A stretch of 64,000 bases of DNA, taken from NCBI RefSeq assembly GCF_054482595.1, contig NZ_CM137008.1; one strand, written 5' to 3'. Numbering within the stretch: the first letter of the stretch is position 1; every line of letters begins with the position of its first letter. Made by a program: the position numbers. Below are positions 60,201-64,000 of this stretch, piece by piece.

Positions 60201-63200
60201 GGGGCATAGACACCGATAAGCGGACTGGACGCCGTGAGTGTCAGTTTTTCATCAATAGCCTCCAGTTGTTTCTCAAGTGAGGCTCCATTCGCCAGGGATG
60301 CTTTCACCATATACGAACCGTTTCTTTCGGGCGTCATGGAGACCTCGGCTATACCATGCGTATCAGTAGAGACAATATTTTGGCTGATGGTCATGTGCTC
60401 TGGTGGCTCTGCACTGAATGTCACGGGTTGATGCGCAACCGGGTTGCCAAACTGGTCGTTAACGTGAGCTTTAACTGCTACGTCTTGTGCGACCATTACC
60501 TGACCTTCCGGTATCTCCAGACTGGTAATCGTCGCAGAATTAACATCTGCACTGGCATTCAGTAATCGCGAGATGACTTCAGTAGGTTTATCTGCCAGAG
60601 AGGCTGAAACTGTTTTCAGTCCGACCTCGGTGCTTGTCACAAGAATTTCAGCGAAACCCCGATCATCCGTTTCAACGCTGGTGCTGCTTAGCGTGACGGA
60701 GGTTCCGCGGAAACTAACTTTTATGCCTTCTACCGGGTTGCCGTTAGCGTCAGTGACGCTTGCAGTCATGGTCGCGCCCTCGGTCGTGCTGACGACGAAT
60801 GAGTATACAGAGGTTAAGGAGGCTAGTTTTGCGGTACCAGCATCGGCAATCAAAGTCACCTGTTTCGTATCACTGACACCATAATTGTTCACGCTAACTG
60901 TCACGGGGTAGGAGCCGGATTTTGTACCGCTCAGTGTAACTTCAGCCTTGCCGTTGATGTCAGTAATGGCGGAACCGCCTTGTCCGAGAGTAAAGCTTGC
61001 GCTCACATCTGCCGGTAGCGTGAATGTCACCGCCTCATTGGCTAACGGGTTGCCGTTTCCATCAGTCACTGTTGCCTGCAGCCTGGTCATCCCGACGTTA
61101 TTAGCGATAAAGTTGTCCTCGGTAACGTTAAGATTAACCTGCGCTGTGAGCGTATCCGCAATAAAATTCACCACCAACTGCTCACTCTTACCGCCAGCCA
61201 TCGATGCTGTAACAGTATGAGCGCCTGCTTTTGTACCTTTCAGCGTGACTTTCGCTTTGCCTTCAGTATCAGTAACCGCTTTACCGCCATCGCTCAGCGT
61301 GAAGTTCGCCTTCACATCTTCCGGCAGAGTAAATGTTACCTCAGTGTTGGCTATCGCATTGCCCTCTGTATCAGCGACTGTTGCTGTTAGTGTCGTGAGA
61401 TCGTTATTGTCGGCAATCACCGGATCCTTCGAGGCTGCCAGCGTGATTTCAGCATTCGCGACGTTCGGCACATAGGTCACTGTTTGTTGCATCGAATCGC
61501 CATTTTCGAGGGTTGCCGTCAATTGATAAACCCCGGCTTTTGTAGCGGTAAAGCTTGCGTAAAAATTGCCGTCGTGGTTGGTAGTATATATAGCGTTATT
61601 ACTGGGGGGCACGCCTTCACTTGGTGAAACGCTGAGGGTTACCTCCTGCTGGGGGACACCGTTGCCGTAATTATTCTTCACCTCAATATACAGACTGGTT
61701 GTCTCGCCTGCGGAGACTGTATCAAAAAGTGCCTGTAGCAAGGTGAGATGTGCCGTAGACGCATCAGCGTTGACATTAATTGATGTGCTAAGCGTGGAGC
61801 TACCATTTTCCAGACTGGCCTCAACGGTATCCGGTCTCGCTCCTGATTCTATCGAGGAGCGGGTATTGGTATAAGTGACGGTAGCCTTACCCTGTTCGTT
61901 CGTCACGGCTTGACCGCCGTTCGTCATTTCGGCTGTCGCTGCGTTGCTGGTGAAGTTCACAGTCACACCTTTCACCGGAAAGCCATTATTATCAACGACT
62001 GTGGCGGTGATGACGCTGCCGGAGCTGTTCTGCGGGGTACCGGCGATTATGCTGTCTGGGACAGGCGTCAACTCGATAATTTTTGCCGCCGCTGTGTCGC
62101 CAATAAAATGCACAGTTTTGTTGTCGCTGGCACCATTATTAGCCAGTGATGCAGTAACCGTCTTCTCACCAAAGGCAACGCCTGCGAGAGTGGCCTGCGC
62201 GATGCCAGACTCGTTGGTATTACTTACTCCCGGGGTCAGGGTGAGTCCTGAAGAGGCTGAGCTGAATGTTACCGGAAGATTATTCACCTCATTGTCGAAC
62301 TGATCTTTAACCGTTGCAGTTAGCGTTGCGCTATCGACGCCATTACCTGTGATCTCATCTTTTGATATCTGCAGAACAACCTGAGCCGAGGCTTTGTCCG
62401 CCACAAATGTTACCGGCTGCGAATCACTGGTATTGTTATTACCCAGCGTTGCGGTAACCGTATGCGTGCCCGCTTTTTTACCTTTCAGCGTGACATGCGC
62501 TTCCCCATTGGCCTGGGTGATGGCAATACCGTTATTTTCAAGGGTAAAGTTTGCCGCAACGTCCTGTGGCATGGTGAAGTTGACCGTTATCCCCGCCACC
62601 GGATGATTCGACGGATCTTTCACCATCGCCGTAAGCTGCACGCTGTCACTGTTATTCGTCACCACCTGTTGAGCAGGGATGTTCAGGGTGACCTGCGCGT
62701 TGCTGGCATCGGGCGCAATATTGACTGTCGTCGTATAGCCATTGCCGTTAAGCAGCGTGGCTTCGACTGTATGAACACCCAAAACCGTGCCCTTAAGGGT
62801 AACTTCAGCAACACCACTGTCGTTAGTATTGCTTGTGCTCTGACTAAGTTGAGTATCTGCCGGGTTGGTACTGAAGGTGACCGGTAGATCTTTTACTACG
62901 TTATCAAAAGGATCTTTCACTGTTGCCGTCAGAGTCGTCTCATCCACGCCATTCCCAATGATTTCCGCTTTCGATGTTTGCAGAACGACAACCGCGCTGT
63001 CCTTATCCGCCACGAAGGTGACTGGTTGCGCATCGCTGGCATTATTGTTACCCAGCGTTGCGGTAACCGTATGCGTGCCCGCTTTTTTGCCTTTGAGGGT
63101 GACATGCGCTTCGCCATTGGCCTGAGTGATGGCAATACCGTTATTTTCAAGGGTAAAGTTTGCCGCCACGTCCTGTGGTATGGTGAAGTTCACCGTTATT

Positions 63201-64000
63201 CCCGCCACCGGATGATTCGACGGATCTTTCACCGTCGCCGTCAGCTGCACGCTGTCGCTGTTATTCGTCACCACCTGTTGTGCAGTGATGTTCAGGGTAA
63301 CCTGCGCGTTGCTGGCATCGGGCGCAATATTGACTATCTTCGTATCTCTGTTGCCGTTAAGCAGTATGGCTTCGGCTGTATGAACACCCAAAACCGTGCC
63401 CTTAAGGGTAACTTCAGTAATACCGTTCTCATTAGTATTACGCGCGTTCAGACTCAGTTGCGTGTCTGCGGGGGAGGTGCGGAAGACTACTGATAGATTT
63501 TTAACCACGTTATCAAAAGGATCTTTCACTGTTGCTGTCAGGGTCGTCTCATCCACGCCATTCCCAATGATTTCCGCTCTCGATGTTTGCAGAACGACAA
63601 CCGCTCTGTCTTTATCCGCCACAAACGTCATTGGCTGTGTATCGCTGACATTGCTGTTAGCCAGACGAGCCGTGATCATATGCGTGCCCGCTAACGTGCC
63701 GGTCAGGGAGGCGATTGCAGTCCCGTTGCTATCCGTCATGCCTTTTCCGCTGTTGCTAATCGAGAACCGACTTGCGACGTCGTTTGGCACAGAGAAGGTG
63801 ATTTCTTTATCTTTTAGTGGGTTGCCATTTTTATCCTGCAAGGTTGCAGTCATATGTAGCGGAGCTGTGTTGGTGACGGTGATATCACCTGAAGGCACAC
63901 TGAAGGTCAGGGCAGCAGTACTTTGATCACCGATAAAATTCACCTGTTGATTAGCCTGAGAACCAGAGCTCACAGAGGCCGTAACCGTATAATCACCATT

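What the first reader, a model, noticed from the sequence alone, without database searches (positions are those of the whole stretch)
62394..63611. Near-perfect 609-bp tandem duplication inside the adhesin gene
Two adjacent 203-codon units (two Ig-like domains each) are almost identical at the nucleotide level while other domain repeats in the gene are much more diverged. This indicates a recent in-frame duplication and a hotspot for expansion or contraction by unequal recombination, which would vary adhesin length and antigenicity.
Basis: seen in the sequence. Interest (0 to 1): 0.4.

Follow-up and report, generated by a model that had tools for sequence, protein, structure and literature searches.

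The report
Two-domain tandem repeat in yeeJ
The E. coli surface adhesin gene yeeJ contains a real 609-base in-frame tandem repeat encoding two Ig-like stalk domains; it is only about 89% identical between copies, belongs to an already published long allele, and occurs in one, two or three copies in different strains.

Summary
The repeat is real, but it is neither near-perfect nor recent. Window 63003-63611 and 62394-63002 align without gaps at 541/609 (88.8%). It is the only strong internal repeat in the gene.

The gene, on the minus strand, is E. coli yeeJ, an inverse-autotransporter adhesin. This is the published long "UMN026-type" allele, and it is 100% identical to at least 16 complete genomes over the shared part.

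Similarity between the units is mosaic. Most of each unit is 93-95% identical, but two patches are only 69-74% identical. Even the similar parts differ more (dS 0.13-0.18) than E. coli alleles differ from each other (0.06-0.08).

- Complete genomes carry one-unit (7374 bp), two-unit (7983 bp) and three-unit (8592 or 8613 bp) alleles.
- The units of the one- and three-unit alleles have the hybrid make-up expected from unequal crossing-over.
- At least two separate expansions are indicated.
- The K-12 short allele is an out-of-register 906-bp deletion between 11-bp repeats.

These variants are old and stable within lineages, so this is not a fast switch. Published tests found no functional difference between the long and short alleles. 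This is ordinary biology, with a small addition to the published two-variant picture.

The parts
58745..64000 (-). yeeJ, inverse-autotransporter adhesin, long allele. This is the C-terminal 1751 codons. The N-terminal 909 codons (LysM and beta-barrel) lie beyond the window end. The last 9 codons (58745-58771) are read from IS1.
   Evidence: 100% identical over 58772-64000 to annotated yeeJ in at least 16 complete genomes. The full 7983-bp gene is in L001. Pfam finds 14 Big_1 stretches plus weak Invasin_D4 and Intimin_C matches. Window coordinate = 66728 minus gene coordinate.
63003..63611 (-). It encodes a Q-type plus a P-type Big_1 domain (Q1 63320-63619, P1 63011-63319).
62394..63002 (-). 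Repeat unit 2 (gene 3726-4334). Domains Q2 62711-63010 and P2 62402-62710.
   Evidence: 541/609 identical to unit 1 with no gaps
62262..63692 (-). Full extent of detectable lag-609 similarity, about 2.35 units. It runs from the end of domain P0 into domain Q3.
   Evidence: Self-BLAST match of 822 bp at 84.2%; the repeat finder family D1; lag profile
63418..63506 (-). Divergent patch A of unit 1 (middle of Q1). Its partner in unit 2 is 62809-62897. The pair is 61/89 identical, with dS about 0.9.
   Evidence: In strain MB53 unit 1 carries the unit-2 version of this patch.
62809..62897 (-). Divergent patch A of unit 2 (middle of Q2).
63005..63047 (-). Divergent patch C of unit 1 (C-terminal end of P1, ...NASDAQPVTF). 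Its partner in unit 2 is 62396-62438 (...NTSDSQPVTF). The pair is 32/43 identical and the synonymous sites are saturated.
62396..62438 (-). Divergent patch C of unit 2 (C-terminal end of P2).
62624..63529 (-). The segment missing from K-12-type short alleles, i.e. the published 906-bp fragment. It is bounded by copies of the 11-mer GTGAAAGATCC (encoding VKDP) at 63519-63529 in Q1 and 62613-62623 in P2. Further copies lie at 63222 and 62910.
   Evidence: BLAST of the long allele against K-12; alignment A1 columns 445-1350; positions of the 11-mer; PMC5595812
58004..58771 (-). IS1, 768 bp, inserted into the last codons of yeeJ. It is flanked by the 9-bp target duplication AGCAAACCC at 57995-58003 and 58772-58780. 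It is not part of the repeat but it alters the same gene.
   Evidence: Pfam DDE_Tnp_IS1 and InsA domains; direct repeat spaced 777 bp; C-terminus reads ...GFAGDAANLLI* instead of ...GFAYATCYKNL*

Best explanation
The region is an old in-frame tandem array in the passenger stalk of the E. coli inverse-autotransporter adhesin YeeJ (long allele). Each 609-bp unit encodes one Q-type and one P-type Big_1 Ig-like domain.

Shown:
- The two central units are 88.8% identical, in a mosaic pattern.
- Most of each unit has been kept alike, apparently by exchange between units.
- Two short patches keep deep, unit-specific divergence.
- Alleles with one, two and three units all exist in complete genomes.
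- The middle unit of three-unit alleles joins the unit-2 upstream patch to the unit-1 downstream patch. The single unit of one-unit alleles joins the unit-1 upstream patch to the unit-2 downstream patch.
- A separate event joined Q1 to P2 at a shared 11-bp motif. This removed 906 bp (three domain lengths) and produced the common K-12 short allele, which carries one chimeric domain.

Inferred:
- Occasional misaligned homologous recombination between the units adds or removes exactly one unit, and also transfers patches between units.
- Each unit lengthens the rod that holds the C-terminal lectin-like tip away from the outer membrane by up to about 8 nm. The anchor and the tip are unchanged.
- The changes are rare on the timescale of strain divergence.
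For: Identity of the gene:
- 100% identical to annotated yeeJ, with the downstream neighbours in the same order as in strain EC-JS426.
- The domain content fits yeeJ.

Mosaic similarity:
- 100/105 and 346/370 identical outside the patches, against 61/89 and 32/43 inside them.
- dS is 0.13-0.18 outside the patches and 0.9 or saturated inside them. Between alleles dS is 0.06-0.08.
- JS426, O157:H7, CUWW06 and PK8277 share the same unit-specific states at both patches. MB53 shares only the downstream patch.

Exchange between units:
- MB53 unit 1 carries the unit-2 version of patch A, which raises its inter-unit identity to 95.7%.
- In O157 and MB53 the end of Q2 carries the Q1 version.

Copy number:
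- Proteins of 2863 or 2872 aa, i.e. 2660 or 2669 plus 203.
- An 8592-bp gene with three units.
- A 189-bp probe gives 1 to 3 places per genome in 1279 complete genomes, 2522 places in all.
- At least 28 complete genomes have three places.
- Annotated coding lengths are 8613, 8613, 8613 and 8591 bp and 7374, 7374, 7375 and 7398 bp.

Recombinant signatures. The crossover lies just after patch A in NCTC9038 but near patch C in 19KM1776 and GCA_036952985. This indicates at least two separate expansions.

K-12 junction. The two published length variants and the 906-bp fragment are in PMC5595812.

Length per domain pair: the intimin D00-D0 pair spans 78 Å (PMC7718877). Intimin is the closest solved relative by sequence.
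Against: - No pair of nearly identical alleles with different unit numbers was found. Recombination is therefore inferred from the make-up of the units and was not observed happening.
- The four one-unit alleles share one structure and could descend from a single event.
- The middle of the unit has few reliable marker sites, so crossover points are only roughly placed.
- An alternative origin for the divergent patches, import from another allele or species, is not excluded.
- No outgroup could be examined.
- The census rests on probe counts and a few dozen inspected genomes, not on every genome.
- The functional effect of stalk length is untested. The one published comparison of long and short alleles found none (PMC5595812).
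Confidence: 0.8

Rival explanations
1. A single recent duplication of 609 bp whose copies have since diverged only by point mutation, with no further exchange between them.
For: The units are adjacent, in frame, free of gaps, and far more alike than any other domain pair.
Against: - Divergence is strongly uneven. dS is 0.13-0.18 in most of the unit and 0.9 or saturated in two patches.
- Even the lowest value is about twice the divergence between alleles.
- The unit-specific differences are shared by four of the five two-unit alleles examined.
- MB53 shows a patch moved from one unit to the other.
Confidence: 0.08
2. The repeat, or its copy number in this window, is an assembly artefact caused by a collapsed or expanded repeat.
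For: Repeats of several hundred bases can be misassembled from short reads. PMC6714894 raises this concern for autotransporter repeats in general.
Against: - The units differ at 68 of 609 positions, so reads can be placed unambiguously.
- The identical 5229-base sequence occurs in at least 16 independent complete genomes.
- About 1170 complete genomes carry two units.
Confidence: 0.02
3. A programmed, high-frequency length or antigenic switch (a contingency-type locus) that changes unit number within clones during colonisation.
For: Unit number does vary among strains, and expansions seem to have happened more than once. Other repeat-bearing surface proteins, such as the group B streptococcal alpha C protein, lose repeats under immune pressure (from my own knowledge, not checked here).
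Against: - Inter-unit identity is only 89-96% and the longest exact run is 42 bases. By established knowledge this level of mismatch strongly lowers RecA-dependent recombination.
- Clonal groups are uniform. All 13 O157:H7 rows in the sample have two places.
- The variant alleles carry their own accumulated substitutions.
- yeeJ is poorly expressed in K-12 under laboratory conditions (PMC5595812).
Confidence: 0.07

Closest known systems
YeeJ long (UMN026-type) and short (MG1655-type) alleles, Martinez-Gil et al. 2017 (PMC5595812)
   Same: Same gene and same allele class. [quoted passage not shown]
   Different: The paper describes two length variants. Here the underlying 609-bp unit is defined. 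The 906-bp difference is mapped to a deletion between 11-bp repeats in non-equivalent domains. Two further length classes, one unit and three units, are found in complete genomes.
Yersinia ruckeri invasin-like molecule YrIlm (Wrobel et al. 2018, as cited in PMC6714894)
   Same: An inverse autotransporter whose passenger contains tandem Ig-like domains of unusually high mutual identity.
   Different: The YrIlm repeats are reported as almost identical, whereas the yeeJ units are 88.8% identical at DNA level and mosaic. I did not read that paper; the comparison rests on the citation in PMC6714894.
Repeat-number variable surface proteins, e.g. E. coli UpaH (Allsopp et al. 2010, cited in PMC6714894) and the group B streptococcal alpha C protein (my own knowledge)
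   Same: In-frame tandem repeats of whole structural units in a surface adhesin. The copy number differs among isolates through recombination between repeats.
   Different: Those repeats are near-identical and change often, sometimes during infection. The yeeJ units are diverged, number only one to three, and the variants are stable within lineages.
Intimin and invasin passenger rods (PDB 6TPL, intimin D00-D0; PMC7718877)
   Same: Big_1-type Ig-like domains in series carry a C-terminal lectin-like tip. The closest solved sequence relative of the unit is intimin.
   Different: Intimin has four Big domains and no internal near-duplicate. YeeJ has about 20 or more, and a copy-variable pair.

Membership tests
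YeeJ inverse-autotransporter adhesin (type Ve), long allele | High DNA identity to annotated yeeJ at the conserved chromosomal site, between the tRNA-Asn gene/mtfA and the GT9 gene/shiA/amn | tested here: met
   100% identity over 5229 bases to annotated yeeJ. ORFs of matching position and size lie downstream in the window at 53467-57706. The glycosyltransferase family 9 ORF was confirmed by Pfam; shiA and amn are named from the annotated, syntenic L001. The upstream side is outside the window.
YeeJ inverse-autotransporter adhesin (type Ve), long allele | Passenger made of serial Big_1 domains capped by a C-type lectin-like domain | tested here: met
   14 Big_1 stretches, E=6.6e-226. Invasin_D4 and Intimin_C match only weakly, below Pfam's cut-offs. 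The lectin-like cap is therefore supported mainly by identity to yeeJ (PMC5595812).
YeeJ inverse-autotransporter adhesin (type Ve), long allele | N-terminal signal peptide, LysM domain and inverse-autotransporter beta-barrel (PF11924) | not testable with these tools
   This part lies beyond the window end at 64000. It is present in the full gene of L001, which is 100% identical over the shared part; cluster P0008 lists PF11924.
YeeJ inverse-autotransporter adhesin (type Ve), long allele | Presence of the 906-bp fragment that is absent from MG1655 | tested here: met
   Gene 3199-4104, window 62624-63529, is absent from K-12.
Copy-number variable tandem-repeat adhesins (unequal crossing-over) | In-frame tandem units that each encode whole folded domains | tested here: met
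   609 bp is 203 codons and gives two Big_1 matches per unit.
Copy-number variable tandem-repeat adhesins (unequal crossing-over) | Unit number differs among isolates in whole-unit steps | tested here: met
   Genes of 7374, 7983 and 8592 bp, and 8004 and 8613 bp on a second C-terminal variant.
Copy-number variable tandem-repeat adhesins (unequal crossing-over) | Gained or retained units are hybrids of neighbouring units | tested here: met
   The middle unit of three-unit alleles has unit-2 patch A with unit-1 patch C. The unit of one-unit alleles has unit-1 patch A with unit-2 patch C.
Copy-number variable tandem-repeat adhesins (unequal crossing-over) | Near-identical units (typically 95-100%) that allow frequent change | tested here: not met
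   88.8% in this allele and 88-96% in others. The longest exact run is 42 bases.
Copy-number variable tandem-repeat adhesins (unequal crossing-over) | Change observed within a clone or during infection | not testable with these tools
   No nearly identical allele pair with different unit numbers was found in my sample. This needs an experiment or a full census placed on a tree.
Simple-sequence contingency locus (phase variation by frameshift) | Short repeat tract whose length changes switch the reading frame on and off | tested here: not met
   The unit is 609 bp, all variants stay in frame, and no short tandem tract was reported in 56000-64000.

The most novel reading that the evidence does not exclude
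YeeJ stalk length may be a repeatedly adjusted trait. There are at least four in-frame length classes: the K-12 chimeric form and the one-, two- and three-unit forms. They would be produced by recurrent recombination in this one array and sorted by selection, for instance to match the thickness of the O-antigen or capsule layer, or the host. The published picture of two variants with no functional difference would then be incomplete.
Probability: 0.2. Interest if true: 0.4.

Novelty: already known. Interest (0 to 1): 0.22.

Why it matters
For this window, very little. It is a known allele of a known adhesin gene, and here the gene is additionally damaged at its 3' end by IS1.

More generally, the analysis refines the published description of yeeJ in four ways:
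- The long/short polymorphism maps to a defined two-domain repeat.
- The laboratory K-12 allele is a deletion derivative that carries one chimeric Ig-like domain.
- One-unit and three-unit alleles also circulate.
- The array has to be taken into account when yeeJ is typed by PCR, used in association studies (PMC12547504 reports yeeJ variants associated with cattle STEC), or used as a surface-display scaffold.

Tried and rejected
- Tandem Repeats Finder found nothing because its longest period is 500.
- A degenerate DNA pattern for the VKDPSNHPVAG motif and a protein-guided scan of the species-representative genome collection both found no relatives. I could not date the duplication with an outgroup. 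I suspect, from memory, that the E. coli representative in that collection is a strain carrying only the yeeJ remnant; I did not verify this.
- Using the three-unit gene as a query did not pick out three-unit genomes, because overlapping pieces on two-unit genes also cover the whole query.
- A 120-base probe across the K-12 junction did not discriminate either, because the two halves are joined across 297 bp in long alleles. The count of about 1600 short alleles is therefore a subtraction: 2885 genomes with the region minus 1279 with the deleted segment.
- One sampled genome with three probe places (F374) turned out to be a two-unit gene split by IS1203. One with a single place (S1-CAM-01-A) was truncated by IS1.
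- I looked for nearly identical alleles differing only in unit number, to show a recent event. None appeared among nine alleles.
- The exact IS1-yeeJ junction of the window did not appear as a single-piece match among the ten best hits in complete genomes.
- Several fetched loci did not reach the scripting machine, so some alleles were analysed only over gene 2755-4700 through alignment A1.
- No structure prediction was run, because the Pfam matches made it unnecessary.
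Full report
**Observation**

At a lag of exactly 609 bases, window 62394-63002 matches 63003-63611 at 541 of 609 positions (88.8%) with no gaps. Elsewhere in the gene the identity at this lag is 20-40%. The repeat finder reports the same period with three copies of falling identity. Tandem Repeats Finder is silent only because its longest period is 500.

When the full-length gene is compared with itself, this is the only strong off-diagonal match: 822 bp at 84.2%, window 62262-63692. The next best are 70% over 198 bp and 70% over 162 bp.

Each 203-codon unit gives two Big_1 matches. I call the two domain types Q (100 aa) and P (103 aa). The local order is P0-Q1-P1-Q2-P2-Q3. 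Protein identities are as follows:
- Q1/Q2: 79%
- P1/P2: 95%
- Q1/Q3: 52%
- P0/P1: 39%
- all other Big_1 pairs: 26-49%

So the repeat is real, and it is far more conserved than any other domain pair. It is not near-perfect: there are 68 mismatches and the longest exact run is 42 bases.

**What the gene is**

The reading frame is on the minus strand (58745-64000) and runs off the window end. Over 58772-64000 it is 100% identical to annotated yeeJ ("inverse autotransporter adhesin-like protein YeeJ") in at least 16 complete E. coli genomes.

In strain EC-JS426 the full gene is 7983 bp (2660 aa). It lies between the tRNA-Asn gene/mtfA and a family 9 glycosyltransferase gene, shiA and amn. ORFs of matching position and size follow yeeJ in the window. 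Pfam finds 14 Big_1 stretches and weak Invasin_D4 and Intimin_C matches.

YeeJ has been characterised. It is surface-exposed, binds peptidoglycan through LysM and promotes biofilm formation. It is reported to exist as two length variants that differ by a 906-bp fragment encoding three Big domains, with no detectable functional difference (PMC5595812). The window carries the long, UMN026-type allele.

**Relation to the published 906-bp polymorphism**

Aligning K-12 yeeJ (7077 bp) with the long allele places the missing 906 bp at gene 3199-4104, which is window 62624-63529 and lies inside the repeat.

The deletion is bounded by the 11-mer GTGAAAGATCC (encoding VKDP). This 11-mer occurs once in each of Q1, P1, Q2 and P2. 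K-12 joins the Q1 copy to the P2 copy.

The K-12 allele therefore carries one chimeric domain (the Q1 start joined to the P2 end) and lacks three domain lengths. This is an out-of-register event at a short shared motif, not the loss of a 609-bp unit. It could equally have arisen from a one-unit allele by a 297-bp deletion, since 7374 - 297 = 7077. I could not tell which.

**Age and mosaic structure**

The 68 differences between the units are not spread evenly:

| Region | Window coordinates (unit 2 / unit 1) | Identical |
|---|---|---|
| Patch A (middle of the Q domain) | 62809-62897 / 63418-63506 | 61/89 |
| Patch C (end of the P domain) | 62396-62438 / 63005-63047 | 32/43 |
| Between A and C | 62439-62808 / 63048-63417 | 346/370 |
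| Upstream of A in the gene | 62898-63002 / 63507-63611 | 100/105 |

The synonymous difference is 0.32 overall, 0.13-0.18 in the similar parts, and 0.9 or saturated in the patches. Between E. coli yeeJ alleles it is 0.06-0.08 over the first 3 kb.

Four of the five two-unit alleles I examined (JS426, O157:H7, CUWW06 and PK8277) carry the same unit-specific states at both patches. They differ from one another by up to about 6% overall. The fifth, MB53, carries the shared states only at patch C.

A simple recent duplication cannot give this pattern. The array is older than the sampled allele diversity, and most of the unit has been kept alike by exchange between units.

Direct signs of such exchange:
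- In MB53, unit 1 carries the unit-2 version of patch A, which raises inter-unit identity to 95.7%.
- In O157 and MB53, the end of Q2 carries the Q1 version.

**Copy-number variation**

A search of the protein collection returned E. coli YeeJ proteins of 2863 or 2872 aa, exactly 203 aa longer than the 2660- or 2669-aa forms. They contain three P-type motifs spaced 203 residues apart. The gene in draft assembly GCA_036952985 is 8592 bp and has three units.

A 189-base probe spanning the Q/P junction is absent from K-12-type alleles. It matched 1279 of 5426 complete genomes in 2522 places, with a minimum of 1, a median of 2 and a maximum of 3 per genome.

A 541-base probe taken from a middle unit listed at least 28 complete genomes with three places. 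They fall into three sequence groups and come from humans, dogs, mink, poultry, soil and seawater.

Annotated coding lengths confirm the classes:

| Class | Strains and coding length |
|---|---|
| Three units | 19KM1776, PCN033, VCSW7: 8613 bp (8004 + 609); NCTC9038: 8591 bp (frameshifted) |
| One unit | SC418, AR_0077: 7374 bp; ACN002: 7375 bp (frameshifted); SHP24: 7398 bp; GN06156: span 7374 bp |

From these counts I estimate, among 5426 complete genomes:
- about 1600 K-12-type alleles
- about 1170 two-unit alleles
- about 30-45 three-unit alleles
- about 65-80 genomes with a single copy of the probe (true one-unit alleles plus IS-truncated genes)
- the remainder with a roughly 2.4-kb remnant or no yeeJ

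These are estimates from totals and samples, not a full census.

**Mechanism**

Three-unit alleles read as follows:
- unit 1: patch A type 1 ... patch C type 1
- unit 2: patch A type 2 ... patch C type 1
- unit 3: patch A type 2 ... patch C type 2

One-unit alleles read patch A type 1 ... patch C type 2. These are the two reciprocal products expected when unit 1 of one DNA copy pairs with unit 2 of another and a crossover falls between the patches.

In NCTC9038 the middle unit matches unit 1 at every marker site after patch A. In 19KM1776 and GCA_036952985 it follows unit 3 until close to patch C. The crossover points therefore differ, which indicates at least two separate expansions.

That recombination is the cause is an inference from these patterns. 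I found no nearly identical allele pair that differs only in unit number. The four one-unit alleles share one structure and may descend from a single event.

With 4-12% mismatch between units and exact runs of at most 42 bases in this allele, established knowledge of RecA and mismatch-repair behaviour predicts a low rate. That fits the lineage-stable pattern: all 13 O157:H7 genomes in the sample have two places.

**Likely consequence**

The closest solved relative by sequence is intimin (6TPL). Its D00-D0 Big-domain pair spans 78 Å when extended (PMC7718877). By analogy, each yeeJ unit would move the lectin-like tip up to about 8 nm further from the outer membrane, without altering the anchor or the tip.

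Whether this matters is unknown. Long and short alleles behaved alike in biofilm assays (PMC5595812). Antigenic effects could not be tested.

**Comparison with what is known, and novelty**

The feature in the window is the published long yeeJ allele, so it is already known. The papers I could search do not contain the following:
- the definition of the 609-bp unit
- the mapping of the K-12 deletion to an 11-bp motif in non-equivalent domains
- the one- and three-unit alleles with their hybrid units

These are small refinements of a familiar phenomenon: variation in the number of domain repeats in surface adhesins.

**Other observations**

In this window yeeJ is also hit by IS1 (58004-58771), flanked by the target duplication AGCAAACCC. 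The insertion replaces the last eight residues, YATCYKNL, with GDAANLLI. This removes the final cysteine. In intimin and invasin the corresponding cysteine forms a disulfide needed for tip function (my own knowledge, not tested here). The adhesin of this particular strain may therefore be defective, whatever its stalk length.

**Verdict**

The repeat is real and correctly located. Its similarity and recency were overstated. The predicted copy-number variation is confirmed in other strains, but as a slow polymorphism in a known gene. Interest is low.

Noticed in passing
window 57995-58780: A 768-bp IS1 (58004-58771) with a 9-bp target duplication, AGCAAACCC, is inserted in the last codons of yeeJ. 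The C-terminus becomes ...GFAGDAANLLI* instead of ...GFAYATCYKNL*, so the final cysteine of the lectin-like tip domain is lost. The ten best hits among 5,426 complete genomes were all two-piece matches, so none carries this exact junction. 37 genomes have a place covering at least 80% of the junction probe; in the ten listed, IS1 lies next to the 3' end of yeeJ at other positions.
   Followed up: partly
window 56654-57706 (+): The family 9 glycosyltransferase gene downstream of yeeJ (yeeL in K-12) is an intact 350-codon reading frame here. It is annotated as a pseudogene in K-12 MG1655 and in several other strains.
   Followed up: no
related loci, rows H65-H88: Roughly 40% of complete E. coli genomes carry only a remnant of about 2.4 kb of yeeJ. 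It matches query positions 276-7598 at about 30% coverage and 93% identity, and is annotated as separate beta-domain and Ig-like fragments. PMC10562709 mentions pseudogenes homologous to yeeJ bordering the high-pathogenicity island at the neighbouring tRNA-Asn gene.
   Followed up: no
related loci L005, L009, L013, L022, L023: A second class of yeeJ C-terminal region exists. These genes are 21-24 bases longer (8004, 8613 and 7398 bp) and diverge from the window allele after about gene position 7920. This class occurs with one, two and three units, so the repeat number and the C-terminal type have been reassorted.
   Followed up: no
related loci: yeeJ is often interrupted by insertion sequences in complete genomes: IS1203 in O157:H7 strains and in F374, as well as IS150, IS3, IS421 and IS1. 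Frameshifted copies are also common. This suggests frequent loss of function.
   Followed up: no
L007/L018 (strain MB53), gene about 3220-3310: In MB53, unit 1 carries the unit-2 version of divergent patch A, so its units are 95.7% identical. This could be a gene-conversion tract, or loss of the first unit from a three-unit allele. About 28 further genomes matched the middle-unit probe in full at 94.3-94.6% with two places, and may be of the same type.
   Followed up: partly
protein list: Database entries for the same allele alternate between 2660 and 2669 aa (and between 2863 and 2872 aa) because different start codons were chosen. PMC5595812 argues for yet another start in K-12 (2340 rather than 2358 aa). 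The true start of yeeJ appears to be unsettled in annotation.
   Followed up: no
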